A DNA stretch of 59,437 nt, filler included, from Globobulimina sp. (Eukaryota): NCBI GenBank assembly GCA_003354225.1. It is 11 parts of 11 records of this genome, joined end to end, with 100 filler letters (N's around TTAATTAATTAA, not from the genome) between each part and the next. Parts side by side here need not be neighbours in the genome. Positions count along the whole stretch, not along the records: positions 48,737 to 54,037 come from PIVH01000638.1; 10 more parts are not named here. The stretch is one strand, 5' to 3'. A program made the position numbers and the translations under genes. The notes beneath the pieces were generated by a model. The model had not been told where the DNA came from and searched no databases. It worked only from the letters and a program-made list of their open reading frames with translations. The stretch's first letter is position 1. Every line of letters starts with the position of its first letter. Positions 1-59,437 of this stretch are shown piece after piece.

Positions 1-534
1 TTATTGGATATTTTAAGTGAAACAAGAAAAAGAAATAAAATAAAATGTTCATTATATGGCGTATGGAAGGATAGAAAAGAAGAAGATGAAGATAGACGAA
101 GTTGGTTATTTTATTTATATTCATCAATCTCATCATCATTAAATATTAAATATCCAAAAAGAAAAATATCAATTCAACAAACAAGTGATTATCGTGGTTT
201 TAGAAATGATTTATTAATTTTTGACTGTGTGTGATTGTTATTTATGTGTTTTGTACAGAAGATTTATGCAGAAGATTCTCAAAATCGTCCTACAAAAAAA
301 TAAAACAATGGCTTTTCACAGAAAAGCCTGGCAAAGTATTTGCACTGCAAAAATGGACCGCAGACTTCAGACTTCATTCATTTATACCACCATTTCAAAA
401 ACAAAAACAGTTGGATTGATTAATGGAGCTATTTTTGATACAGCTGATATTGTTTACCCTCCATTGGATGCCATGTTGTAGATTTGTCAGTACGTATTTT
501 TATTAATTATTCTAAAAATAAAACTCTTTTCATC

Positions 535-3500
535 ATGTCACAAGAAGAAGACGAAAGTTCTTCAGTCGAAACAGCCTCAACAGGAGACGGTGATGAATCC
601 TCCACTCACGAGTCTGATTTCGATACATCAGAAGACAACGACCTCAACACCCATGCCACAAAAGCAACCCCTTCAGGCCTCGCATCAAAAGACGACATTG
701 ATATCGACACTGACAATGCCGAAGAATATGAAACTGATGACGAGTCCTATGAAGATGGCACTGCATCCACCGACGACACGGACGAAGACACAGACTCAGA
801 TTCTGACTCAACTGAGCACGATGATGATGACTCAAACGACTCAGATGACTCTGATGAATCCGAGCCCAAATCGCGCAGTGTAGAATTACTAAAATTCAAC
901 GACGATAATCCCACACAACGCAAAGGCCAACATAACGAAGTCACCGACGAAGAAGCCGAAGCGCACACTGATTCAGACGAGAATGAGGAGAGTCTAGATT
1001 CAGATGAGGATATAACTGATGATGACGAGGATGACAACGATGAAGAGGCCGAACCCCAACTAAAATACCAGCGATTAGGTGGCGGTGTGACTAAAATGAT
1101 GGAGAATGACGCCGCCTCTTCGTTGAAATGCCATCCTCGTTTTTTAGTGTTGGGCATGAAATCAGGCACTGTGTACGTGTTAGATCCGCACGGCGATATT
1201 ATTAAACAATACAGACCTCACAAGAACGCAGTGAATGCCATCTCGATTGACCAGAATGGCGATCATGTTGCGACATGTTCTAAAGACGGTATATTATCCT
1301 TGCACTCATATGCATTTATGCCATTATGTGGGTCAGTTTGAGACTGCAAAATATTGAATTTCCCACCATCCAAAGTCATATTTTTCAGTTTGAAACTGAC
1401 CAGTTTGCGACTTATATATTTTTATTCAGTTTGAAATTATATATTTTCAGTTTGAAACTCCATATCACAAAACGAGTCGGTTTGAAATTACATTGCATCC
1501 ATAAACTAAACAGGAAGGGTGGTGATACGCGATATATTTAAAGATGTGCAAACCGTGCATAATTTCCGCAATCAGGATTTATTGTCGATAGAATTGCATC
1601 CAAACTATGGCACATCACAGATGTTTGTGACTGGCGGACGGGGACAACAATTGTTATTACGCAGCATAGGCTTCTTCCGATCTGATAATAAGGTGCTTCA
1701 CAGTGGAGAAGGTCCCATATATTGCATATCGTGGCAATGTGAGTTGATTGCGTGGGCCAATGACCGTGGGGTTAAAATCTTTGACATCTCTGATCATAAA
1801 CCGATTGCACACATTAATAGAAGTAACCGTGGCTCACCGGACCCGGAGCGGTATAAATGTTGTCTATGTTGGGAGAATCGAGAGACTTTACTCATTGGAT
1901 GGGGCGATTGGGTCAAAATTGGCAGGATACGCACTGTACGGACACAAACAGGACATATGATGAAGGAAGTACATGTCACCAATGTGTTCATTACAGATTT
2001 TTATATCTGTGGCATTGCGCCGTTCAAGGAACATCTCATATTATTAGGTACCATACGTTTCCATACAAAAACACTTAGTTTTCAATATAAAAACGTATTT
2101 CCACTCATTTTTATACAAAAACACTCGTTTTTAGCGTTTCTGGAGAATGACGATGATGAGAGCAGCAGTTCAGACGACGAAGAAGAACATAAACAAGATT
2201 TAGACCGCGGAATAGGTAAAAGTAAGCCGCCCGAACTACGCATTGTGTCCCGCCGCGGTGAGTGGATCGCCACGGATGCACTGCCAATCAATAAATATAA
2301 AGCAAATCAAGCCAAAGATTACAAATTAGTATGGAGCCATGACGATGTGTTAAGGTATAAATACATGTTAAATAATGTATATTTCTCAACAAATAACAGC
2401 TACGATTCTAGCTCGCTAATGTTTGTACATAAAAAATGTACAAACATAGCTATACATTGTTGAAAAATACCACATTATTTCAGCTCAACACTTGCGGATT
2501 CCTCCTCGGTCTACGATCCATACAACTCCTTTGCCGGCACCTTCCACACTAACACGACCAATATCGGCCCGGACCAAGACTTAAAAAATCGCAAATCGCG
2601 CAAATCCAACATCGACGAGACGTTTTACATCGTCTCCCCGTCGGATATCGTGGCCTCACTGCCCCGCACCGTGGAAGATCACATAAAATGGTTATGGGAG
2701 AAGGAGGAATACGAAAAAGCTTGGCGACAGTCGGTATTATACAGCGACGACTTAATTCGCAGCAAATTAAACCCGACGAGTTTAGGTGAAGAGTTTCTTA
2801 AATACGTCTTGGAAGAAGATGAGAAATCGCACGTCCGTTTTGGCGATTTGTGCAGCGAAGTTTGCCTCAAAAACAAGCAATTATGGGAGAAGTGGATCGA
2901 TTCCCTGTCTTCCTGCGGCAAATTGAATTTAATCATCGACGTGATCCCGCTGACCAACCCGCAGTTAAATGCGCGTTCGTATGAGCTCATTCTCCGCGAA
3001 TTGATCAAGAATAACCATTTGCAGTTCTTGCAATGCGTCAGTACGTGGGACAGCAACTTGTATGACATGAAGACCATACTCCGCGATGCCACCAATCGGC
3101 TGAACGAGGTGCGACGCAGTGACCCCTTGATCCAGGCTCTCGCGCAGTTATTTCGAATGGACGAGGAGTTTGACAAAGCATTGGAGTATTATTTGCAATT
3201 AAAATCGCAGTTATTGTTGCATTTGCCGCGCCGCTACAACATCGCGTACTTATTTGTGAGTACACATACCGACAACAAGGAGTACAAATATATGATGAAA
3301 AACTGCACCATCGACGCCATCATCAAACAGGATGAGGAGGAAAAGTATCAGCGCAAATTGCGCAAATTGAAGAAGAAGAAAGAGAAACATTTGACAGTGG
3401 GCAGCGGCCTCAATGTGGAAGATATGAATAAAAGCGACGATGGCTACGACTCGGCTGCGTTGGACCTGGAGCAAGAAAAGAAAATCAATCTGGAATTAAA

Positions 3501-5001
3501 CCGAATATCGTCCGGCGTGTTCACCATGATCAAACAGCATAAATTGTGGCAATATATCCAGGATAAAATCATCCCGTTGATCGAATTGGACATTTTCCGC
3601 AGCAGTAAGCTGTTGAACCAATATCGCGACGACATCCATCCCAAAGGCGCCAATTTCATCATCGAGCAGGTTACGTTACGGATCTCTGAGATCGATCAGA
3701 ACAACAAATTGAGCAAAAGCAGCGGGCGCAATGCCATGAATATGAACAACGTGTTCAAGAACCGGCATTCGTGCCAATTAAAAAAAGTGTCGCCCGCAGT
3801 GTACAAGAAGTATTTGAAGTTTTTTATGTATTTATACTTGCACGAATTAGTGGGCTGTTGCGGCGACGCTTCGTCTTATCCGGAATTCCATGATTATTTG
3901 GTGGCGCTGTATGCGGAGTTCAATACGCGACAATTGTCCAACTTTTTGGCGGTGTCACATCACGTAAAGTTCAGCAAAGCTCTGTCGGTTTGCGAGAAGC
4001 GGCTGACTCATACCAAGGATGTGTTGAATCGCAGGAATTTGAATGAATGCTATGTGTTTATATTGAACCGGATGGGCAATTTCACCGAAGCATTGCAAGT
4101 GATATTGATTAAGTTGAAAGATGTCGATAAAGCGGTGAAATTCGTGGAGGAGCAGTCTGATAAATCGCTGTGGAACCATTTGATTGAGCGGACACTACGC
4201 GATGCGGACGAATTGATGCCGAAGCTGTTGGATGCGGTGAAAGGACATCCTAACGTCGACGCGCAAGAGTTGATCAGTAAAATCCCAAACAAGTTGAAAA
4301 TCATTGGCTTGAAACAGAAAATCATCGCTATTTTTGAAGAGTATTCGCGAGAGAAGTTGTTGACAAAGGGGACCACTGACATTTTGCGCTCTGACTGTTT
4401 GAAGTTAGGCAATAAGTTATATAGCGAAGCTGGCAAAGGCGTCATTGTCAACAATTCGAGCTATGGCAAGATCAGTATTTGTATCATCTGCCAGTTGCCA
4501 TTGAAAGTGTATCCGTCGTATTATAAGGAGCATATGGCGCGCATTAAGAAAATGGAGGAGTTGCAACAGCGGAGACATGACGATGTGCAGTATATGCATT
4601 TGCAAGAAAAGGAGTCGGCGTTTGCGAGGATCTCAATTAATAAAAGCAACCCGTTCGAGCAGAAGATAGGAAAAGAAAAGGAATCTGTTGAAGAGAAAGA
4701 AGCGATCGGTTCGACGCGGTTAAATATAAAAAATAGCAATGAGGATTATGCGGATAAGAAATTGTTGTCCAATAATAAGAAATGGAGTGAGTTGTCGGAG
4801 ACATTGCCGTCGATCAAAGTGTTTCATTGCGGACATTTTTATCATATCGATTGTTATCGGGATGCGCAGTCCGATAAAAAATATAATATTGTCAATGAGG
4901 AGGACGAAAAGGAGGATGAGGAACAGGATAAGTGTTTGATTTGTTTTTCTGGCCATGGATCGGGACAAACAAAATCTAAACGACGCAATTATAGATATTG
5001 A
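535..5001 (+). CDS. VPS41: Vacuolar protein sorting 41 (HOPS subunit), 4 exons (535-1288, 1514-2047, 2135-2354, 2484-5001)
   Basis: EPQLKYQRL start of WD region, LIAWANDRGVKIFD, LLIGWGD, FYICGIAPF, PPELRIV, EDHIKWL, clathrin-repeat region and C-terminal RING-H2. Three GT-AG introns restore one frame. Confidence 0.92.
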
Positions 5002-5327: not shown

Positions 5328-5427
5328 NNNNNNNNNNNNNNNNNNNNNNNNNNNNNNNNNNNNNNNNNNNNTTAATTAATTAANNNNNNNNNNNNNNNNN
5401 NNNNNNNNNNNNNNNNNNNNNNNNNNN
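5328..5427. other. Artificial contig-joining spacer (first of 10)
   Basis: 44 N + TTAATTAATTAA (stops in all six frames) + 44 N. Identical spacers at 10754-10853, 16173-16272, 21591-21690, 27006-27105, 32419-32518, 37827-37926, 43234-43333, 48637-48736, 54038-54137. Confidence 0.99.
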
Positions 5428-6240: not shown

Positions 6241-7662
6241 ATGCTTGATTATGCTTCTTCTATGAAATGGATCTTGTTCAAGCCTGCTGTTAAAAGAGCG
6301 AGATGCTTTTCTGTGTCAATTCATGATCCCACATTGATCAACAGAGCAGTCAGCAACAAATTAAAAAAGACATCAAAACGAATAGTTGAAAAATCTGGAA
6401 ATTCCACTAACCGACAAAACTCATCCAATATCTTGAATATATTGCATAATAATACAATTTGCAATGAAATCAAATATTTGGATGCAATTAAGCGTCTGGG
6501 AAGCATCGGTGACATTCAATGTGCTAAAAAAGTAATAAATGATGTTATAAATTTTCGTCCAATTTTGCCTTCATTGCGGATATACAATCAATTATTTAAT
6601 GCATTTGCATGGAATGATTGTATTTGGGAATCGCAATTCTATATTGATTCAATGATAAACGTCGAGGGAATTATGCCAAATATTGAAACAGCCACAATAT
6701 TGATCAAAGGTTGTAAACGAAAGGGAATGGTTAAATTTGCAGAGAAAATATGGAAAGACATGATTACAAATTACCATTTAAAACCAAACATAAACACTTA
6801 CTCGCAAATGATGGGCGTATATGGCATAGCTGGTAAACATATTTTGGCTGAAAAACTGTTCAAAGAAATGACAGAATGTCAACATATTGAAGCAAACATT
6901 GTTGTTTGTAGTTATTTGATGAAAGCATATGCAGAGAATAAAGACACACCAAAAGTATTAAAAATGAAACAATACATTGAATCAAAACATATGAAGCTGA
7001 CACACGTACAATATTTGATTATAATGACATGCTATTTGAAGAATGATGATTATCACAATGCATTGAATATATATGATGAATATGTAAATGTTTGTGTTAC
7101 AAAACACATTAAAATGTTTGCATTGCAAATGGTTGCATACATAGGAATTATGACTGTAGAGTCTAGCAATAATATAGAAAAAAGGAAATATTATTTTGAT
7201 TTGATTACAAATTCAATTCAATTGAATTGGAAATATCTGAATATTACATTGGCAAATATTCAATTATTTGCAACCATAATATTTTACGAAAATGATTTTG
7301 ATGAAATATTGAACATATTCAATAAGTTACAAAGTGAAAATATGTTTGGATATTGGACCAAAGATTATTTGAGCATTGATTTGCATGAATTTGGATACGA
7401 CGTTGCTCAATTTATATTGCTATATATTTTTAAGTTTGAGAAGCAACGCATTTTAAGTATGAGTTGTGTGCAAGTTTTGGTTGGAAGAGGAACACACAAA
7501 GATAGAAAGAGTGCATTATTAGGAAACTCAAATAAGTGTAAAGGAATTCGAGAATGTATCGCCAGAGAGTTAATGAATTATTCACCTCCGATAAGATCCG
7601 ATAACTACAAAGCATTTTTAATTCTTAATAGAGACGATATCCTCAAATACTATCAACAGTAA
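6241..7662 (+). CDS. PPR protein with C-terminal SMR domain, probably mitochondrial
   Basis: Tandem ~35-aa PPR motifs (PSLRIYNQLFNAF, PNIETATILIKGC, PNINTYSQMMGVY), then SIDLHEF and VLVGRGTH SMR motifs; basic N-terminus. Confidence 0.8.
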   Translation: MLDYASSMKWILFKPAVKRARCFSVSIHDPTLINRAVSNKLKKTSKRIVEKSGNSTNRQNSSNILNILHNNTICNEIKYLDAIKRLGSIGDIQCAKKVINDVINFRPILPSLRIYNQLFNAFAWNDCIWESQFYIDSMINVEGIMPNIETATILIKGCKRKGMVKFAEKIWKDMITNYHLKPNINTYSQMMGVYGIAGKHILAEKLFKEMTECQHIEANIVVCSYLMKAYAENKDTPKVLKMKQYIESKHMKLTHVQYLIIMTCYLKNDDYHNALNIYDEYVNVCVTKHIKMFALQMVAYIGIMTVESSNNIEKRKYYFDLITNSIQLNWKYLNITLANIQLFATIIFYENDFDEILNIFNKLQSENMFGYWTKDYLSIDLHEFGYDVAQFILLYIFKFEKQRILSMSCVQVLVGRGTHKDRKSALLGNSNKCKGIRECIARELMNYSPPIRSDNYKAFLILNRDDILKYYQQ

Positions 7663-10853: not shown

Positions 10854-11465
10854 CAAATCAATTTATTCATCGCAGCTATTATTTATTATAAATGAAACAG
10901 GAGCGCGGCATCTCATTTCTGGCGGCAAATATTCTGAATCATCAGAGTTATATCTCTCCGATGGTGGCTGCCGTGGGCCAAATATTGATAATACGAATTG
11001 TTGCGCATCTCGCAAACCAGCGGTATCCAATGCCTTTGATGATGAATAAGATCGCGATCCGGATGAATAAGATCGCGATGGCGACGAATAAGATCGATAT
11101 CTGGATGCAGAGAGAGCGCGCGATATCGCTGGCTGGCCGTACGTAGCCATATATATCTCACGGAAGGTCGGTGTTGAGCCATCCGAGCCGGAACTGTATG
11201 ATCTGGCCGGCGTTGATGAGCCGGAACTGGACGATCTGGCCGAAGTTGTTGAGCCGGAACTGGACGATCTGGCCGAAGTTGTTGAGCCGGAACAGGATGA
11301 TCTGGCCGAAGTTGTTGATGTTGTCGACGTTGTAGATGATGGAGATGTTGATGGCGATGTTGATGGAGATGTTGTCGACGCTGTAGACACCGATGGCGAC
11401 CTTCTTTCTAATGGCGGGGCGCGCTGGTTCTCCGGGATATCGATAATGTTGCGACCGATTGACAT
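10854..11465 (-). CDS. Hypothetical Ser/Thr-rich repeat protein, divergent from the 11784 ORF
   Basis: ATG at 11465, 200-aa ORF, GC-rich, encodes TTSARSSSSGS and SRSYSSP repeats; may continue by splicing past the contig end. Confidence 0.5.
11041..11103. repeat. 3 x 21-bp tandem repeat (GATGAATAAGATCGCGATCCG-like)
   Basis: Read directly from sequence. Confidence 0.85.
11185..11316. repeat. 4 x 33-bp tandem repeat (GAGCCGGAACTGGACGATCTGGCCGAAGTTGTT-like)
   Basis: Read directly from sequence; unit length is a multiple of 3. Confidence 0.9.
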
Positions 11466-48736: not shown

Positions 48737-48900
48737 GCTGCAGTTGGGTGGACTTTGGGAGCTGCAGTTGGGTGGACTTTGGGAGCTGCAGTTGGGTGGA
48801 CTTTGGGAGCTGCAGTTGGGTGGACTTTGGGAGCTGCAGTTGGGTGGACTCTGTTGGACGGCGCTCTGTTGGATGGTGCTCTGTTGGATAAACTGCTCTG
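48737..48900. repeat. About 4.7 x 24-bp tandem repeat (GCTGCAGTTGGGTGGACTTTGGGA) followed by 3 x ~15-bp CTCTGTTGGA repeats
   Basis: Read directly; the array runs off the contig start. Confidence 0.95.
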
Positions 48901-48972
48901 TAATTATGAGAGATTATGAGAGATTTTAATATTTTTGCCATAAATCCAAAATACATTTTCCCATACATAAAC

Positions 48973-49316
48973 TGCATGTAATTCATCAGCATCGATCATA
49001 GTGACAAAGCTTTTTTCATTTTCGGATTCAGCACCATTTTCCGGGTCTATACACATAAAAGTATGATTTTTTATCAATCATACATACCAAACGAATATTA
49101 TTAAAAATTCTATATTTTCAATAGTTATCAGTTATATCTATATGTACTTTCTATAATAATCTTATAATCAAAATACAGAAGTCTCAAATAATACTCGTTT
49201 CGCCGGTATGATTGATAAATAATGCCAGTTAAATGTATATAGATCTGAAAAATGGTGCTGAATCCGAAAATAAAAAAAGCTTTGTCATTATGATCGATGC
49301 TGATGAATTACATGCA
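48973..49316. repeat. Long imperfect inverted repeat (arms ~125 bp, spacer ~90 bp)
   Basis: TGCATGTAATTCATCAGCATCGATCATA..ACAAAGCTTTTTT..TTTCGGATTCAGCACCATTTT is mirrored by AAAATGGTGCTGAATCCGAAAA..AAAAGCTTTGTCA..TATGATCGATGCTGATGAATTACATGCA. Confidence 0.92.
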
Positions 49317-49684
49317 ATTTTCCGAAATAAATGTAGATTGTAGCTGACACATATTCATAATTTCATAAGTCGGTAATTTTATACTAAAAATACATTAATT
49401 AAATGTTTTTCTGCAATTAAATGTTTTTCTGCTTTGCACGTCGGATGTAACAGGTGATGTCCTGTCGCGCTGGAACCCTCTGGTCCTGTGAATCAATTTT
49501 GGTTCACTGGAGGTTCACTTTAGCAAAACAGTTTAATGTTTAATTGTTAGAATTCATTTTCTTGGGTTTGTTCTGTGTTTGTTATTACTTTTTCTTGGGT
49601 TTGCAAATCCAGAACAAAGTCAGAACAAATTTACAATTGAATTTATTTTGCAATAAATAAGTCATTTTAATCAATACATATTCT

Positions 49685-52600
49685 ATGCCTCGTCCAAAAC
49701 GAATCAAAACCAAAGGGATAAATCCGAATGAATCCGAACGACATAGAGCTTGGACTGACGATGAAATATTTGACTGGAATCACAATAAAACATTAAATCG
49801 TTCATATGTTAAATGTATCGAACATGATAATTGTTCAAAACCATTTAGAATATTAAATAAATATAAATTGCATCTTCAAACAAAACATAAATCATATTTA
49901 TCATCAAATAAAAAGGATTATCAATATTACACATTAAATCATGATAAAGAATGGGAATTAACTCTCATTAAAACCAAAAAACGTAAACGAAAATCATTGA
50001 TCTGTATTGAATCTGATCGCAGCGCTAAAAAACTAAAAAAAACTAAATATAATAATTTTTGGAGTGTTTCAGGTTTTAATGTGTCTTCAAATAATAATAA
50101 TATCCAATCTGCGATTAATGAGTCTCCAATAAATGAGTCTCCAATTAATGAATTAAATGAATCTGACCAAAAATCTGAGAGCGTGGAAGTTATTCAAGAT
50201 ATCCAAGATGCAAACAGTTGGATTGTATCTCCTCCTCAATTACAAGATAGATATTATTCATCTGGTTTGCAATTAATATATATACAAAATAAAAATAATA
50301 TATTTACATGTTTTTGTGCCACATGTAATCAACCAATGATGGATAAGAAACAATATAATCGTAATAATATCGGTGAATGGGTTGCTGTTAAAAATGCAGT
50401 ATACCAACATTTCAATACAAAGGGTAATACACATTGGATTTATGCAAATAGGGATAATGAGGACAATATTACATACGTTCGAGCTAAAAATGTATATTAT
50501 AATATGTGCGGACAATATTTGATGAATCTGCAACAAAATAAAGGATATTTATCATGGACAAAAGATATTAATTACCTTCACGATTTTCGTATAGATATTG
50601 GCAATAAACAGCATCATGAACATGGCCCAGAATTATTCATTGAGCCAGTTTACAGAGAATGTTTGGATGTGATCAATAAATATATTACGACGCCAAGTGC
50701 TGCATTAGGCGGTGTACCATATGGATTTTCAATGTCATTTGATAAAGGCACACCAAATGGATACCGTTATACCATGGAATATAATCGAATAAAAACGTTT
50801 GGGCCTGATTTTTATCCGATATCTGCGGCTGTTTATCAACACGAAATAACAGATGAAAGTGATAAGGAATGGACGAAAGGGACTGGACAGGGACTTTGTG
50901 ATAATAAGCAATTGGTTTTTGATGCAATAAAATTGAGCAAATACGAAAATTCGCGGGATTGTATGGGGCGGCATGCCGATCGGCAATATGATAATAACAA
51001 TTTGGGTGTTTTACATTTAATGCGGGAGAAATATGAATTGACTGAATTTTCATCAGACCAGTCTGACCCAGCACATTTAATAGAATCTGGCGATGCGTTC
51101 GTACGCAAAAATTCAGGATTTTATCAATCAGTAAACCGGTGTTCAAATGTACTGATATCTCCGTTCAATTATTCTAAAAAGAAATTCAATAAAATCAGGC
51201 AACACTTGAGCATCTGGGCGGTTACATATAAAAAGAAGACTGAGGTAAAGTTTTTAGCTCACAGCACAACATCTTTTAATTCTGTCATCAGAAACACGAA
51301 TGGAGCATTGCATTTATTTGGACAAAATTTACGGCCAACAAATCAAAAAGGTCGTAATAACATTTATTTACAAAAATTAACAAAATCCGGATATTTTCAG
51401 ATTGGAATGAGATTTATTAATGATACAAGTAATCCGATTATTACTGGTATCACAAAACCATCACAAGGTGACATGTGCCCTTTGTATAGATATCCGGCAA
51501 TAAAAACTGATATAATTAATGATTTTAAATATAGATTAGGATTATTTGAAATCGCATACGGAAATTGCGATGAAAATACATGTCAATTAATCCCAGATGA
51601 ATTAATTGATTTATATCCATCATTTAAGGAATTAAATTTTTATGGAAATTGTGTGGATATTAATATAAATATAATGGATGATAAATATGAAGGAATTATT
51701 AAAGGAATGAGTAAGAATGATATTGAAGCATTGCAAGTTACCGTTGGCAAAACGGAATTGGATTATAGTATTTTAACAAGTAACGCTAAAAACGAATTAT
51801 GCGGAGTTTGTCGATTGGGAGATGGGATAAGTAATTGTGAGATGGTTAACTGTCATCGATGTGACACATGGTTTCATTATGGAAGGGATAGTTGTGAGTA
51901 TCATAGGACTAGGAATTATAATATTGATTTTTGGGATGATCATCCATATTATTGTCAACATAATGGGTGTTGTCTCAATAAAAACAAAAAATGGAATGAA
52001 TCGGATAGGAATATAGTCAGAGAATTATCCAGACCCGAATTAAAAGAGGATATATCTATTGAAGAAGCAGAGCACCAAACTGGAGAGGAACAAATTGGAA
52101 TTGAGGAAGAAAAACATTTGGATACAGTTACTGAAGAAATCGAAGATATAAAAAGATTATATAATATAACACAGGTTCGGAGATCTGTGTTTATTCAAAA
52201 TATGATGATTGAATTTATGGGACATTTATCATTATGGATACAATGTTTACAGGAAGTTGTTTTATTTGAAAAGAATTTGGAACTTATGGCGAAAGTTTTT
52301 GACACAAAGTTACATTTATTTGAAGTGGATAAGATTTTAAGCAGCAAAGAAAGCTCGAAACAGAAAGATAAAATGTATAAAAAATATATAGATCGTATGG
52401 GTAGGAAAGAATATTGGCAATTAGCGGGATTATGGAATGATTCATTTAAGAAATTTAATCTTGACAAACCTATCCCAGAATTCCTGTCAGCATACAAACT
52501 ATTCAAAAAACGTTTTTTTAATCTCCGAAAAAAACACCTTCTTTTGGGACACTTTGAAGCAAATAAGAAACAATATTATAAGAAATATGGTGTAACTATT

Positions 52601-53116
52601 CTCAAACATAATGAAATATTTCGCCAATTTATTGAAACTCCGGAATTGTATCGTGATATTGAAGCATTTAATATGTTATGGGCAAGATGTGAGGTTATGG
52701 GTTGTTCAGAAGGTCGAGTTGAAGGTGAAGTAAAATCTGGCGATGAACGTTTACGCAATCGATACAGATTAAAGCCAAAAAGATTTAGAATGGAACACAC
52801 AGCACGCGATATATTAAGAACACAAACACAAGAACAAAAAAAAGAAATACAAGAAAAAGTAAGAAAAACCTTAATGAAAAATGCAAATTCAGTCAAAAAA
52901 GTTGTGTTTGTTACCAATAGGGTCAACCCAACACATTATCCATCAAAAACAATTGCGCAATTTCGCAATCCTCCAAAAATAATGAAAATACAATCAAAAG
53001 ATTTAATTGGTATTGATAATGAACATTGTTTTGAAAATCCATATTTATATATTGATGATGATGCTTGTTTTGATTCCGATGATGAGGTTTGTTTCGGTTT
53101 GATGACTTTGCAATAG
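49685..53116 (+). mobile_element. hAT-superfamily-like DDE transposase (1143 aa) with N-terminal zinc fingers and an internal PHD finger
   Basis: C2H2 finger, CxxC..H..H finger, DIGNKQH, SMSFDKGT (D), HADRQY (D), DPAHLIE, PHD (CGVC..CHRCDTWFH..C..YYC), CSEGRVEG (E). Single uninterrupted ORF. Confidence 0.7.
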
Positions 53117-53457
53117 TTTGAATTAATGTTATTGTTGTTGATGATGTATAAAATGTTATTGTTTAATTAATGTTATTGTTGTTAATGTTATTGTTTATTT
53201 AAAATGTTATTGTTGATGTTGTTAATGAATTGATGTTATTGATGTTGTTGTTGATAATAAGTTGCTTTGTATGCAGTATGAGGCAGTGGATAATTGTGGT
53301 TGTAATTGTTTATTTAACCACGACTTGTTGGCAGTGACAATTGGGTGCCATTGTTGGCACTAGACTGAAGAATAAAAAATGTGAGGATTGTTTTATTTTT
53401 AGTCATTATTAATGGCTTTCCAGAGTTAAGAAAAAATAATGGAACGCTTTCGACCTA

Positions 53458-54037
53458 TTGGTGATGGTTTGGTTCCTGTTTTTCAGCTTGAAAGTGACGC
53501 CGAAAACGAATTTCATAGTGTCGGACTTCTGGCGGTGGATGGTGGTGCATATGTGGGTGGAGGTAACATTCGAGGTCTTCACCACTGTCATCGTGGCCTT
53601 CTTGTACCGCCACGTACATCGCGGTGATGCTGTTCTTTCTGTCCGCGACCATCGGCATCGGGCATAACTTTTATTGGATTGCGAAGCCGACGGGGGTCAT
53701 TGCGATGGGCAGCGCCTTCTCGACGACGCAGGTGATGCCGCTGATTTTGCTGACGATGGACGCCTGGAAATTCATCCAAATTCGTTGGAGCAGGCGAAGG
53801 GAAATCAGAAGCACATTATGCGCGGAGTGTGGTTGTTTATGCTCGGCGTCAACTTCTGGAAAGTGTTTGGTGCCGGAATCCTGGGCTCGTTTATCAATTT
53901 GCCGGTGGTTAATTACTATATGCACTCGACATATTTGACTGGGAATCATGCTCATGCCGCCATGTGGGGCGTGAAGGGCAATATCGCCATTGCCGGAGTC
54001 TTGTTTTGTGTGCAACATACGGTGCAAGAGAAGTATT
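53458..54037 (+). pseudogene. Nitric oxide dismutase (Nod)-type qNor-family fragment with two frameshifting deletions (~53605, ~53778)
   Basis: Three frames give SDFWRWMVVHMWVEVTFEVFTT, IGHNFYWIAKPTG..STTQV and NFW.VFGAG..GSFINLPVVNYY.H.TYLTGNHAHAAMWGVKGN. Confidence 0.88.
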
Positions 54038-54591
54038 NNNNNNNNNNNNNNNNNNNNNNNNNNNNNNNNNNNNNNNNNNNNTTAATTAATTAANNNNNNN
54101 NNNNNNNNNNNNNNNNNNNNNNNNNNNNNNNNNNNNNCGGCTTCTCCGCTGCATGTTTCATAAATCATAATTATACCGACATATATTTGTGTATAATAAG
54201 TATACACAAATTGTATAATCCGCTCTGATAGAAAGTATACAAAATTCTGAAAGTTACTTTTTTTTATTTTAGTGTAAAAGAACAAGTTTGATGAGTATAA
54301 TAAACAATTAATTATATAAGTATAACTGCTATAAAATTAAAATTAAACGGATTGACACAAACATAATAATATAATATAAAAAAAAAAGAAATTAATGCGT
54401 CAAACAGAGCAAATCACATAAATTATGTACGTATAAATCAATTATTTTTGTTGACCAAATATTCATACTTTATGTAAGATATAATACAATATAAATTATA
54501 AAAATCTTATCCGTTAATAAAGGCTATACAAAAATGCGTTTGACGTATATAAAACATATAAAACATATAAAATAATATGTAATTTAATAAA

Positions 54592-55879: not shown

Positions 55880-58293
55880 TTATTTCCCATATATTTTCCA
55901 TTTTCCTAATCCAATATAACCAAAAAATCTAATTCGAAGTGCTTGAACGTCTTTATTTATCATCACAATTTTTGATTCATTGTCTTTAAATCCTTCCAGC
56001 AAACAAATAGTAATCCAACTATTCCGTGTTGGATTCAATGAGTATTGTAGTGTCTGGCCATTAATGTCCTTACAGCTCCAATTGTTGGACATACCCATTG
56101 AAGTCCCTGGTGGTCCAATGTCCATACAATAAACATACGTTGTTTTGCTAAACCTTGCTTCAATCCATTGTAAGGACATTGTGCCGTCTTTATTCTGATC
56201 TGTAGCGCAACCTTGATTTAGATTATCATTCATCATTACTGAATATGTATTAAAAAAATCCAAACCCGCAAAGTCCTTAAATTTGGAAGACATCCTTAAT
56301 GTATATGACACATTCCTTCCTATCTTTGGTTGTTGCAACAAATTCAATTTTTTTTGCACTTCATTGCAATCATTCTGTAACTTGACATGTTTCAGTTGAT
56401 AAACATTACAATCATTCTGTAATTTGAAATTTTTCTGTTGACAATCATGCAATTTTTCTTTCACTAATTCCAACGGAGACTTTGGTTTTGGAATTCTTCT
56501 CTTTGTGTTAAACGCACCACACTCACTATCTGGATTCTGGAAATATAACAAAATACAAACTAATTCTTGCTGCGTTAATATATTCAATGGTACAACATAT
56601 TTTGCAAAATACTTTCCGTCCATCAATCCAAACCTGACCAAATCACGAACAGATTTTAATAACTGTACTATCTCTCCTTTTTTTAATCTATTTGCCCATT
56701 CTTGCATTTTTTCCCAGATCTCCTCCTCAGACAATGGTAACGTACATTGTAAAAAGACTCTCATCGTTGATGCTTTCATGCTGTAAAACGAGTCAGAATT
56801 TAAAATATCAGCAATAACGGTTGCGGTGCTTTGATTGACATATTGTATACATTTAGAAGAAAAAGTGTCCAATTTCAACGACAATGATTTATCTAATAAA
56901 AAACACACATTTGATGGATGTATGCATTGATCAAAGTAAGTTTGACAATACAATGGCAATGCTATAATTTGATATCGATCGCAAATACACAATACATCCA
57001 ATACAGTTTCTGTGGTGACGTACGTCTTTGGATTAGCACAATATGCAAAATTTAAAATGCAGTCAAATGCTTCACAATCAATATCATCAATAACTACTTC
57101 TGAATTGGATTTGCTTTCTTCCATTTGTCCAAATAGCATACCTTCAAACAAGAAAATCTAATTTGGTGAGACAGGAATATCAAAAAATAAATATTAACTT
57201 AACCTTCAAATACCGGACTAATAATTTCCAAAAATAAACGATTTAATGAGAATTCCCGTTTCTTTGTTCCATGTCCAATTACAAACGTAACGTCTGTATA
57301 TTTTGAAATTGTCAATAAATTATGTATAGTTTTGCGTTGTGCTGTTTTGGCCTCATCAGTGTATGGATCATATTCCACTGATTCCTTATTTCCATCAATG
57401 GTCATTGTCCTTTGTCTTTGTGTCGTATTAAATATACAAGTGGCAGATGGCGCATATGAATATGTTAAAACACTCAGTGATTCATCTTTTGATAATATGT
57501 GCTGTGACATAACATTTTGTACAAAGTAATTTCCGCTCATTAAAGGAAATCGTATCAAATCTTTTATTGCGCCAAGTGACTGCAATTTGGATTTATTTTC
57601 ATCAATATTTAAGGAATTGCTTTGATGATTTGCCCATTCCAACACCATTTCCCATATAATTTCTTCTTTTACAGCTAACGCATCCAATTGCAAACACAAT
57701 CGCATTGTTTCCACGCTCATTTGCTTAAATCCATCTGATTTAATCACATCCTCAATCGCATTTGCATCATCTTCTAAATATTTCAAACATTGTTTACGTT
57801 GAACATCTAATTTCCATTTTGTTGCTTCATTCAGTAAGATACAAACATTATTTTCACGTATATTATTCTCAAAATATTCATTGCATAATGTGGTCAACAC
57901 AGGAATATGATATTTCTCACAGATATACAATACAGATAATACATTGTTGGCTGACAGGTTTGGATTGTTACAGTATGCAAATTTTAATACCGATTGGAAT
58001 GCATTACTATCAATATCTGCCAACACAAATTCCTCTAATTTGTCATCACCATACAATAATTCGTCAAAGTGATTACTAACTGAGGATAAAAACAAACGGT
58101 TTATGTCATACCGATCGCGATATTGGGTTTGCGTCGGACCAATAACGAATGACACATCAGTATATTTATGTTGGTTGAGCACGACAGATAACTGTGCATG
58201 CATTTCAAATTCAATATCCGTGTCTGGACTCATTCGTTGTTTTTTGTATGCAGGTAATTTGAGACCATCATCATTATCTCTACGACGTTTCAT
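55880..58293 (-). CDS. Tandem BTB-BACK x2 protein with coiled coil and C-terminal discoidin/galactose-binding-like domain; intron 57142-57203
   Basis: Two YTDV.FVIG...NRLFL BTB starts, EE.IWE...WA BACK motifs, LIRFPLM; WIEARF in the C-terminal domain. Confidence 0.85.
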
Positions 58294-58463
58294 CTTCGGC
58301 GATTCTTCGCGGCGCAACTATGAGGTATAAATCATGTATATTAGTAGTTGCAGTTTTTGTATTTTAATGGTATTTTTGCAAAACTGTTTCACCCAATATT
58401 CAAACTGTAAACATATACAAATTTGGTTGTACTTTTATTGTTTGTATACCGTGCACAGTTTCT

Positions 58464-59437
58464 CTAGTTACCGCAACTGCATTTACTATTTAGAAATATA
58501 TGTTTTTGTCGAGTGTCAGTGCAAGAAATAGGTAGATTTGGATAAAATTTTGATACTTTTTTAAAGAAATTATGACAATCTTTACACATTCTCATATTAA
58601 CTGTAATATCAACATCATTTTCCGAATTGATATCCAATAAAAATGCTAGTGCTTTTTTTTCAGAATGATATTTAATTAAATGATATGCTCCATAAATATC
58701 ATTTAATTCTGGATATTGCGTAATATCTATTTCATATTTTATTAATTCAATAAGTTTATCCACCAACTCATTATAATTATTATTCATATCATTATCATTG
58801 GTTACATTATAAATAATTCCATTACATTCAAATTGAGCAATAATTGTTGATGATGGATATTGCATTTTATATTTATTTACAAATATTTCTTTTATCATAT
58901 TTATCATATAAACATCATTCACATTTATAGCTGTTCTATAAAATAACTTCAATTGATATTGTTCCATTTCATACCAATTTGATTTGTTGAGAAATATTTT
59001 GGCTTCATTTAAAGCTTTTTGTTTGTTTATATTATCCATGGCCAGACAGCAAATAGTTGTTAATATATTGATATGTGGTTTCAAATTATTTAAGTTACAA
59101 AACAGTTTATATCCATTGTATTCATTCCACATTTTATCATAATTTGAGTTTGATAGATTAGCATAAGCAGTGATGATTTGATTCCATGAAAGATGCGACA
59201 TTTTATTCATAAAATTATGCTTTATATTTGAAACAAATAAATCAAGCAATACTTCATTTTTTGACTTATAGGCTGCGATAATAGCAACACAATATGTATT
59301 TATATCTGGTTTTATCTCACATTCAATCATTTTATCCCAATAAATATTAATTAAATAGGGTTTGCCACATTTGATAATTCCAGCAATTATATTTGTAAAA
59401 CAATAATTATTTATATGCGTTTTTATAAATTCATCGG
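58464..59437 (-). CDS. 5'-truncated PPR protein with C-terminal DYW-type cytidine deaminase domain
   Basis: PPR motifs (KPDINTYCVAIIA, SWNQIITAY), then YHSEKKALAF, NMRMCKDCHNFFK.VS, D....H.F...CSC. Frame is open to the window end. Confidence 0.88.
   Translation of the reverse strand, partial: DEFIKTHINNYCFTNIIAGIIKCGKPYLINIYWDKMIECEIKPDINTYCVAIIAAYKSKNEVLLDLFVSNIKHNFMNKMSHLSWNQIITAYANLSNSNYDKMWNEYNGYKLFCNLNNLKPHINILTTICCLAMDNINKQKALNEAKIFLNKSNWYEMEQYQLKLFYRTAINVNDVYMINMIKEIFVNKYKMQYPSSTIIAQFECNGIIYNVTNDNDMNNNYNELVDKLIELIKYEIDITQYPELNDIYGAYHLIKYHSEKKALAFLLDINSENDVDITVNMRMCKDCHNFFKKVSKFYPNLPISCTDTRQKHIFLNSKCSCGN

What the first reader, a model, noticed from the sequence alone, without database searches (positions are those of the whole stretch)
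53458..54037. Nitric oxide dismutase (Nod)-type sequence in a eukaryote assembly
Seen: HMWVEVTFEVFTT (His at 53548), GHNFYWIAKP (His-Asn at 53663-53668), STTQV (Gln at 53729) and NHAH. Established: canonical qNor has HLWVEG, a His-His pair and SALEV, while the putative O2-producing Nod of Ca. Methylomirabilis replaces one His ligand and the Glu in this way; Nor homologues related to this clade are reported from denitrifying foraminifera. Inference: the host or an associate has a Nod-type enzyme, which raises the possibility of NO dismutation to N2 + O2. Activity cannot be read from sequence.
Basis: partly seen in the sequence, partly recalled or inferred. Interest (0 to 1): 0.8.

Follow-up and report, generated by a model that had tools for sequence, protein, structure and literature searches.

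The report
Broken foraminiferal Nod-like nor gene fragment
This is a truncated, frame-broken piece of the nitric-oxide-dismutase-like gene family already described in denitrifying foraminifera, so it confirms a known gene family and cannot itself encode an enzyme.

Summary
Window 53458-54037 carries HMWVEV, GHNFYW, STTQV and NHAH at the stated places and matches quinol-type NO reductases far beyond chance.

It is 187 of 191 residues identical to P0121. P0121 shares a 90% cluster with Globobulimina turgida transcript proteins. In a 61-row tree it sits inside the foraminiferal clade of the Nod-type group, away from 13 canonical qNor representatives. No bacterial or archaeal species genome exceeds 55% identity.

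The locus is not a gene. It covers only residues 471-680 of about 800. It starts abruptly at 53458 against AT-rich foraminiferal DNA and runs off a contig end into an artificial linker. Two deletions (38 nt, and 16 nt replaced by 3) put the three pieces in two reading frames.

In four public runs no contig bridges the junction or either deletion; the contigs laid there carry the intact sequence. So it is either a dead partial copy (about 0.55) or an intact paralogue garbled by assembly (about 0.35).

Nod-like Nor in foraminifera is already published (PMC6783311, PMC8153729). Interest is low.

The parts
48737..54037 (.). One 5301-nt contig of a draft assembly. The window is 11 such contigs, sorted by length and joined by artificial linkers.
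   Evidence: N44-TTAATTAATTAA-N44 linkers at ten places; segment lengths fall from 5327 to 5300 nt.
49685..53116 (+). Orphan 1143-aa ORF in AT-rich host DNA (GC 0.31, GC3 0.23).
   Evidence: ORF; no Pfam family; none of 4252 candidates of 628-2001 aa scored E <= 0.001. GC3.
53117..53457 (+). AT-rich, G/T-repeat-rich spacer after the orphan ORF, with AATAAA at 53371-53376.
   Evidence: Contigs of run X1 match 52900-53458 with 0 differences (records 1 and 2).
53458..53458 (.). Abrupt junction between host DNA and the nor-derived sequence.
   Evidence: tables 7 and 8. The host-side X1 contig runs on for 59 nt of other sequence. nor-side contigs of X2, X5 and X9 run on upstream with letters I translated by eye as WLFYGS, matching the intact proteins. 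No listed piece bridges the junction.
53458..53610 (+). Piece 1, frame of 53458. It equals P0121 residues 471-521 (51 of 51 identical) and contains HMWVEV (His508 and Glu512 kept, Gly513 to Val).
53610..53611 (.). Deletion 1: 38 nt missing by my count from the sequence (P0121 residues 522-533, EMGLVSKKAAER). It shifts the frame by +1.
   Evidence: table 7: contigs of all 4 runs continue here with GAGATGGGATTAGTAAGCAAGAAAGC, which I translated as EMGLVSKKA.
53612..53781 (+). Piece 2, frame of 53459. It equals P0121 residues 535-590 (54 of 56 identical). It contains GIGHNFYW (His559 kept, His560 to Asn) and STTQV (Glu581 to Gln).
53782..53784 (.). Deletion 2: 16 nt of the intact form replaced by TCG, net -13 nt. 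P0121 residues 591-596 (MREKAE) are lost and the frame returns to that of piece 1.
   Evidence: table 7: contigs of X1 and X2 continue after 53781 with GCGCGAGAAAGCCGAGTTGGAGCAAGC..
53785..54036 (+). Piece 3, frame of 53458. It equals P0121 residues 597-680 (82 of 84 identical; 83 of 84 to G. turgida P0001). It contains NHAH, the heme ligands His651 and His653. The gene runs off the contig end.
54038..54137 (.). Artificial linker (N44, TTAATTAATTAA, N44). What follows is an unrelated contig.

Best explanation
The stretch is a dead partial copy (gene fragment or young pseudogene) of the Nod-like quinol-type NO reductase (NorZ) gene family that denitrifying foraminifera of the Globobulimina type carry and express.

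It keeps only the part coding for residues about 471-680, the core helices with the binuclear centre. It has lost everything upstream at an abrupt junction with AT-rich foraminiferal DNA. Two internal deletions (38 nt, and 16 nt replaced by 3) put the middle piece out of frame. As it stands it cannot make an enzyme.

Shown:
- family identity
- the Nod-type residues
- the breaks
- foraminiferal rather than bacterial affinity

Inferred:
- The breaks exist in real DNA and are not assembly products.
- The parent was a functional paralogue until recently, because its differences from other copies are almost all synonymous.

The intact family members would bind heme b and heme b3 through the conserved His residues. 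They would bind a non-heme metal through two His plus Asn, and they lack the quinol site. Whether they dismutate NO to N2 + O2 or reduce it to N2O is unknown.
For: Identity:
- 187 of 191 residues are identical to P0121, and 98% to G. turgida P0001.
- In the tree the fragment sits in a 4-row clade with G. turgida proteins (SH-aLRT 99). That clade lies inside a 13-row foraminiferal-type clade (100) and a 47-row Nod-type clade (100).

Nod residues: His560 to Asn and Glu581 to Gln, with His508, His559, His651 and His653 kept.

Breaks: three pieces in two frames, and a stop at 53665 in the first frame.

Real-DNA reading:
- An assembler working from exact shared words is not expected to create a 38-nt deletion, a 16-to-3 replacement or a junction without shared sequence.
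- I saw no long shared word at any of the three breakpoints in the window sequence.
- At several listed places table 3, for example 53668, 53695, 53985, 53997 and 54003, nearly all covering contig depth in most of the four runs differs from the window. This suggests a separate copy rather than a patchwork of the abundant ones.
- 22 of 23 listed differences are synonymous, so the copy descends from a constrained gene.

Host side: the AT-rich part matches run X1 with 0 differences. A TyrRS on a neighbouring contig is 97% identical to a G. turgida transcript protein.
Against: - No contig of four runs bridges 53458, 53610/11 or 53781-84. No joint is reported (tables 5 and 8).
- At all three places contigs carry on with the intact gene. 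At 53458 the host-side contig of X1 (depth 5) carries on into other host-like sequence.
- X1 to X4 hold only about a tenth of the sampled words of the nor part. This is my estimate from the shares and the coverage. It is what copies about 93% alike would give, so this exact variant may be absent from those contig sets, although X1 keeps other nor variants of depth 6-12.
- These are Logan contigs, which drop rare variants, so absence is weak evidence.
- Two indels with only two private amino-acid changes would be many indels for so young a pseudogene.
Confidence: 0.55

Rival explanations
1. Assembly or library artefact. The last 580 nt come from an intact but rarely sampled nor paralogue, or a mix of paralogues. 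It was wrongly joined to the end of an unrelated host contig, and the two internal deletions arose in chimeric molecules or in assembly of a multi-copy family.
For::
- The host-side X1 contig passes 53458 into different sequence.
- nor-side contigs pass all three breakpoints with the intact gene.
- There is no bridging piece and no joint in 4 runs.

The fragment sits at the very end of a contig of a highly fragmented assembly. The family is multi-copy with many variants 90-99% alike: 39 to 877 contigs were laid per run. All but one of the listed differences are synonymous, as expected of a working gene.
Against: - Three independent artefacts within 580 nt would be needed.
- None of the breakpoints shows a long shared word that would mislead a word-graph assembler.
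- The 16-to-3 replacement looks like a repair scar.
- The other ten contig ends of the window show no similar foreign ends. GC islands at 10854-11453 and 48737-49036 are low-complexity coding sequence or a minisatellite.
- Published Globobulimina drafts come from pooled individuals of two species (PMC6783311, passages). In data of that kind an alternative continuation at 53458 could be an allele without the insertion.
Confidence: 0.35
2. Bacterial contamination: the fragment comes from a Nod-bearing bacterium associated with the foraminifer.
For: - The family is of bacterial origin, and the GC3 of the pieces (0.64-0.84) exceeds that of six host ORFs in the window (0.23-0.60).
- Two members of the P0001 cluster come from JGI/IMG with no organism attached.
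Against: - The best match among 185,579 bacterial and archaeal species genomes is 55% identity.
- The best metagenome contig is 68%.
- The nearest named proteins are foraminiferal transcript proteins: G. turgida 98% and Bolivina argentea 81%.
- The published work validated Nor by RT-PCR on oligo-dT cDNA (PMC6783311, passages).
Confidence: 0.03
3. A working gene read in an unusual way: the missing stretches are introns or the frame changes are programmed.
For: The two deletions sum to 51 nt, so the frame returns to the original after the second one.
Against: - The window lacks sequence that is present in the proteins predicted from transcripts, which is the opposite of an intron.
- The N-terminal 470 residues are absent from the window.
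- The first frame stops at 53665.
- The out-of-frame piece holds the metal ligands His559 and Asn560.
Confidence: 0.02

Closest known systems
Foraminiferal Nor/Nod-like proteins (Globobulimina turgida, Bolivina argentea; Woehle et al. 2018 PMC6783311, Gomaa et al. 2021 PMC8153729)
   Same: 98% identity to G. turgida P0001 over piece 3, and 187 of 191 to P0121 of the same 90% cluster. It shares the clade signature GVGHNFYW-type plus STTQV (the window reads GIGHNFYW). It falls in the same tree clade.
   Different: - It is only residues 471-680.
- It has two frame-breaking deletions and no N-terminal part.
- It has two private residue changes (Thr to Ser and Val to Ile just before His559).
- It has several letters that nearly all covering contig depth in most of the four runs does not share.
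Putative NO dismutase (Nod) of Candidatus Methylomirabilis oxyfera and gammaproteobacterium HdN1 (Ettwig et al. 2012, PMC3413370)
   Same: His560 to Asn and Glu581 to Gln, HMWVEV, and conserved heme ligands. The near-identical full-length P0121 also lacks the quinol-site residues: His328 is Ile, Glu332 is Arg and Asp746 is Gly. It belongs to the same 47-row clade.
   Different: - Local identity to the M. oxyfera (P0098) and HdN1 (P0036) proteins over the stretches that align runs from about 74% to 100%. That is far below the 98% to the foraminiferal proteins.
- The foraminiferal clade is a separate 22-row branch with STTQ instead of STLQ.
- The foraminifera were reported to make N2O (PMC6783311).
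Canonical quinol-dependent NO reductase (qNOR/NorZ; Geobacillus stearothermophilus 3AYF, Neisseria and Alcaligenes structures)
   Same: Same fold family. P0121 aligns to 3AYF over residues 35-775 at E 3e-130. His508, Glu512, His559, His651 and His653 are kept.
   Different: His560 and Glu581 are replaced. The quinol site is absent in the full-length relative. It groups apart from the 13 canonical representatives.

Membership tests
Heme-copper oxidase superfamily, NO reductase branch (Pfam COX1, PF00115) | Sequence match to the catalytic subunit profile above the curated cut-off | tested here: met
   Piece 3 scores 51.6 bits against a cut-off of 34.8. Pieces 1 and 2 alone fall below the cut-off at 13.3 and 21.3 bits. 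PDB qNOR hits at E 8.4e-13.
Heme-copper oxidase superfamily, NO reductase branch (Pfam COX1, PF00115) | Axial His ligands of the two hemes and His ligands of the non-heme metal | tested here: met
   His508, His559, His651 and His653 (3AYF numbering) are kept in the window's pieces, mapped through P0121. The other heme b ligand lies outside the fragment.
Canonical qNOR (NorZ) | His559-His560 pair and Glu581 at the binuclear centre | tested here: not met
   The window reads His-Asn and Gln.
Canonical qNOR (NorZ) | Quinol-binding residues His328, Glu332 and Asp746 | tested here: inconclusive
   These lie outside the fragment. In the near-identical full-length P0121 they are Ile, Arg and Gly. The residue numbers His328 and Asp746 come from PMC3413370 passages; Glu332 is recalled.
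Nod-type clade (putative NO dismutase) | One metal-coordinating His replaced by Asn, and the nearby catalytic Glu replaced by Gln (Ettwig et al. 2012) | tested here: met
Nod-type clade (putative NO dismutase) | Groups with M. oxyfera and HdN1 Nod rather than qNOR in a tree | tested here: met
   47-row clade with SH-aLRT 100, with 13 canonical representatives as outgroup. This was a quick search with no bootstrap.
Nod-type clade (putative NO dismutase) | Intact reading frame for a full-length protein of about 800 aa | tested here: not met
   Only residues 471-680 are present, in three pieces and two frames, with a stop at 53665. No other part of the gene is in the window.
Nod-type clade (putative NO dismutase) | NO dismutation to N2 + O2 | not testable with these tools
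   A 2024 preprint states that no Nod has been characterised biochemically (10.1101/2023.11.21.568154, passages).
Foraminiferal Nor clade | Near-identity to foraminiferal transcript proteins and no close bacterial counterpart | tested here: met
   98% to G. turgida. At most 55% to bacterial or archaeal species genomes. At most 68% to metagenome contigs.
Foraminiferal Nor clade | Physical linkage to host nuclear DNA | tested here: inconclusive
   The window joins it to host DNA at 53458, but no contig of 4 runs bridges that place and the host-side contig of X1 goes elsewhere.

The most novel reading that the evidence does not exclude
The fragment is a genuine relic of an otherwise unsampled Nod-like paralogue, inserted in truncated form next to an orphan gene in the foraminiferal nuclear genome. 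It may be present in only some individuals. That would give direct physical linkage of this laterally acquired family to host DNA. It would also show that the family is undergoing duplication, dispersal and decay.
Probability: 0.4. Interest if true: 0.3.

Novelty: already known. Interest (0 to 1): 0.15.

Why it matters
Foraminifera are the only eukaryotes known to carry this bacterial-type NO-converting enzyme. Whether it makes O2 in the dark or N2O bears on marine nitrogen loss and greenhouse-gas budgets. That question is already posed in print and needs biochemistry.

This locus adds nothing to it, because it cannot encode the enzyme. Its only possible value is as a marker of gene-family turnover and of host linkage, and only if the junction proves real. 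For a scan, the useful lesson is practical: the window is a chain of unrelated small contigs, so neighbourhood across the linkers means nothing.

Tried and rejected
- **Whole-genome search for other copies:** no genome is held for this window.
- **DNA of an intact near-identical copy:** the metagenome scan returned 80 loci, best 68% identity. It did not return the contig that encodes P0121, so the deletions could be described only from loose ends of laid contigs.
- **Sequencing runs:** no RNA holder listed. Parts of the stretch without cover in a run are not used as evidence.
- **Neighbouring 1143-aa ORF:** no Pfam family and no relative of similar length (shorter and longer proteins were not searched). 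It therefore gives no independent proof of eukaryotic origin. A first Pfam call failed because I included frames with stops.
- **Repeats that could explain a misjoin:** only short imperfect matches, for example 18 of 21 nt between 51778 and 53492, judged chance. The 22-nt continuation of the X1 host contig is not elsewhere in the window.
- **Flanks of the nearest environmental relatives (L003, L005):** 6 ORFs, no Pfam hit.
- **Paper searches:** the searches for a purified or cryo-EM Nod and for Globobulimina nor pseudogenes listed nothing relevant among the 12 rows each. I did not search further, so I make no claim that such work is absent from print.
- **Supplement of PMC6783311:** the one file held as text has 'Nor' 73 times, but no 'pseudogene', 'frameshift' or 'partial'. 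Its Data S1C, the Nor alignment and gene list, was not seen and may already list this fragment.
- **Intron and programmed-frameshift readings:** rejected (see rival explanations).

Full report
**What the window is**

The 59,437-base window is not one piece of a chromosome. It is eleven contigs of 5327 down to 5300 nt, sorted by length. They are joined by identical artificial linkers (44 N, TTAATTAATTAA, 44 N). The finding lies at the 3' end of the tenth contig, 48737-54037, and runs straight into a linker. Nothing beyond 54037 is a neighbour.

**The observation**

Translation of 53458-54037 gives the reported motifs. HMWVEVTFEVFTT and NHAH are in the frame of 53458. GHNFYWIAKP and STTQV are in the frame of 53459.

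GC rises from about 0.25-0.35 in the flank to 0.50-0.56 in the stretch.

The last piece alone matches Pfam COX1 at 9.1e-14 and Geobacillus qNOR 3AYF at 8.4e-13.

**What it is related to**

A search with the last piece found a 230-aa protein 98% identical, an 81% match, and about a hundred full-length proteins at 64-76%. The cluster look-up names the first as Globobulimina turgida and the second as Bolivina argentea, both from EukProt transcript sets. It also places an 801-aa JGI protein, P0121, in the G. turgida cluster.

tblastn of P0121 against the whole window finds only this stretch (E 3e-77), and no other part of the gene.

Piece by piece the window equals P0121 as follows:
- residues 471-521, 51 of 51 identical
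- residues 535-590, 54 of 56 identical
- residues 597-680, 82 of 84 identical

The assembly is foraminiferal. A tyrosyl-tRNA synthetase on another contig of the window is 97% identical to a G. turgida transcript protein and 70% to Reticulomyxa. Other contigs carry ordinary eukaryotic genes such as Vps41, La, Suv3 and PPR.

**Nod type or canonical qNOR**

I mapped the residues through the alignment of P0121 to 3AYF.

| 3AYF residue | State in the fragment or in P0121 |
|---|---|
| His508, Glu512 | kept |
| Gly513 | Val |
| His559 | kept |
| His560 | Asn |
| Glu581 | Gln |
| His651, His653 | kept |
| His328, Glu332, Asp746 (quinol site; outside the fragment, read in P0121) | Ile, Arg, Gly |

These are the changes that Ettwig et al. 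used to set the putative NO dismutases apart from qNOR (PMC3413370, passages).

Wherever my three patterns were found, the 129 proteins of the first searches and 79 of the 80 metagenome loci read Nod-type. In 9 proteins and in locus L078 no pattern was found. Canonical HLWVEG, His-His and Glu types appeared only among distant representatives at 26-36% identity.

I built a tree of 61 rows (IQ-TREE quick search, SH-aLRT only, no bootstrap):
- The fragment sits with G. turgida P0001, P0126 and P0121 (support 99).
- That group lies inside a 13-row clade with Bolivina (100).
- That clade lies inside a 22-row clade that shares GVGHNFYW and STTQ (100).
- All of this lies inside a 47-row Nod-type clade that holds M. 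oxyfera and HdN1 (100).
- The 13 canonical representatives form the outgroup.

Eight rows, the fragment among them, fill under half of the columns. The outgroup rows have long branches, so only the placement of the fragment near G. turgida and within the Nod type is taken from this tree.

- The fragment does not group with canonical qNOR.
- The best of 185,579 bacterial and archaeal species genomes is 55% identical, and the best metagenome contig 68%.

**Why it is not a gene**

The homology starts abruptly at 53458, at residue 471 of about 800, and ends at the contig end. There are two internal breaks.
- At 53610/11, 38 nt are missing by my count from the sequence. These correspond to P0121 residues 522-533.
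- At 53782-84, 16 nt of the intact form are replaced by TCG, and residues 591-596 are lost.

The breaks shift the frame by +1 and then back. The first frame stops at 53665. The missing stretches are present in proteins predicted from transcripts, so they are not introns.

**Is the broken state real?**

Ten public runs hold part of 52900-54037. I laid four of them, all as Logan contigs.

Against a real broken copy:
- In X1, the AT-rich part 52900-53458 is covered with 0 differences at depth 5-8. The contig that reaches 53458 continues for 59 nt into other G/T-rich sequence, not into nor.
- Contigs on the nor side in X2, X5 and X9 continue upstream of 53458 with letters I translated by eye as WLFYGS, the intact protein sequence (compare).
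- At 53610 contigs of all four runs, and at 53781 contigs of X1 and X2, continue with letters I translated as EMGLVSKKA and RE KAELEQA, again the intact gene.
- No joint and no bridging piece is listed.
- From the shares and the coverage, I estimate that X1-X4 hold only about a tenth of the sampled words of the nor part. That is what copies about 93% alike would give.

For a real broken copy:
- The fragment is not a patchwork of the abundant variants. At several listed places nearly all covering contig depth in most of the four runs differs from it (table 3).
- One stretch uses AGC for a serine where the laid contigs use TCG (table 7).
- 22 of 23 listed differences are synonymous, so the copy descends from a gene long under constraint.
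- None of the three breakpoints shows a long shared word in the window sequence of the kind that would mislead an assembler.

Contigs drop rare variants. Published Globobulimina drafts were made from pooled individuals of two species (PMC6783311, passages). If the window's assembly is of that kind, an allele without the insertion is expected.

I therefore cannot decide. I put a real dead copy at about 0.55 and an assembly or library artefact at about 0.35.

**What is known**

- Woehle et al. 2018 reported Nor homologues in Globobulimina as monophyletic, nested in NorZ and next to the M. oxyfera Nod clade. They described Nod-like catalytic residues and one copy beside a eukaryote-specific gene. 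They concluded against Nod function because N2O was measured (PMC6783311, passages).
- Gomaa et al. 2021 found the same family highly expressed in Nonionella stella and Bolivina argentea. They noted the missing quinol site and proposed a putative Nod, while citing acetylene experiments that argue for N2O as an intermediate (PMC8153729, passages).
- Two further texts cite foraminiferal nor with Nod features (PMC6636425, passages; 10.1101/2023.11.21.568154, passages). The second states that no Nod has been characterised biochemically.

**Verdict**

The kind is already known and interest is low.

Noticed in passing
window 5328-5427 and nine further places, last at 54038-54137: The window is a chain of eleven unrelated contigs of about 5.3 kb, sorted by length and joined by N44-TTAATTAATTAA-N44 linkers. 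Gene neighbourhood across linkers is meaningless.
   Followed up: yes
window 49685-53116 (+): An intronless 1143-aa ORF with very low GC3 (0.23), a Cys/His-rich cluster near residue 720, no Pfam family and no relative of similar length in 5.8 billion proteins. It may be a lineage-specific or mobile-element gene.
   Followed up: partly
window 48969-49102 and 49187-49320: A 134-nt inverted repeat, 86% complementary, 84 nt apart, upstream of the orphan ORF. It looks like a small foldback or MITE-like element.
   Followed up: no
window 48737-48880: A 24-nt minisatellite, five copies, at the very start of the contig.
   Followed up: no
window 58464-59435 (-): An ORF ending in a DYW-type deaminase domain (Pfam PF14432, E 1.5e-13), with a PPR protein at 6241-7662 on another contig. 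DYW proteins are editing factors in plant organelles (recalled), so this hints at C-to-U RNA editing in a foraminifer.
   Followed up: no
window 55880-58317 (-): Two adjacent BTB (one BTB-BACK) genes in tandem on the last contig.
   Followed up: no
window 484-5001 (+): Vps41 is spread over three ORFs (beta-propeller in two parts, then TPR and RING) separated by about 180-nt gaps, which fits short introns.
   Followed up: no
L003 1650-4043 and flanks; also L006, L007: The nearest environmental relatives of the foraminiferal clade (64-68% identity) lie on marine metagenome contigs. In L003 the gene (GC about 0.56) is flanked by GC 0.42-0.45 DNA whose 4 tested ORFs have no Pfam hit. These may be other eukaryotes rather than bacteria.
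   Followed up: partly
window 53710-53718 versus contigs of runs X2, X5 and X9: nor paralogues differ by a serine codon-family switch (AGC in the window, TCG in the laid contigs) while the protein is unchanged. This is a sign of old paralogues under strong constraint (table 7).
   Followed up: partly
window 53371-53380: AATAAA at 53371-53376, and the X2 contig covering the end of the orphan ORF stops at 53380. This is a weak hint of an mRNA 3' end 78 nt before the nor junction. The kind of run X2 is not on record.
   Followed up: no
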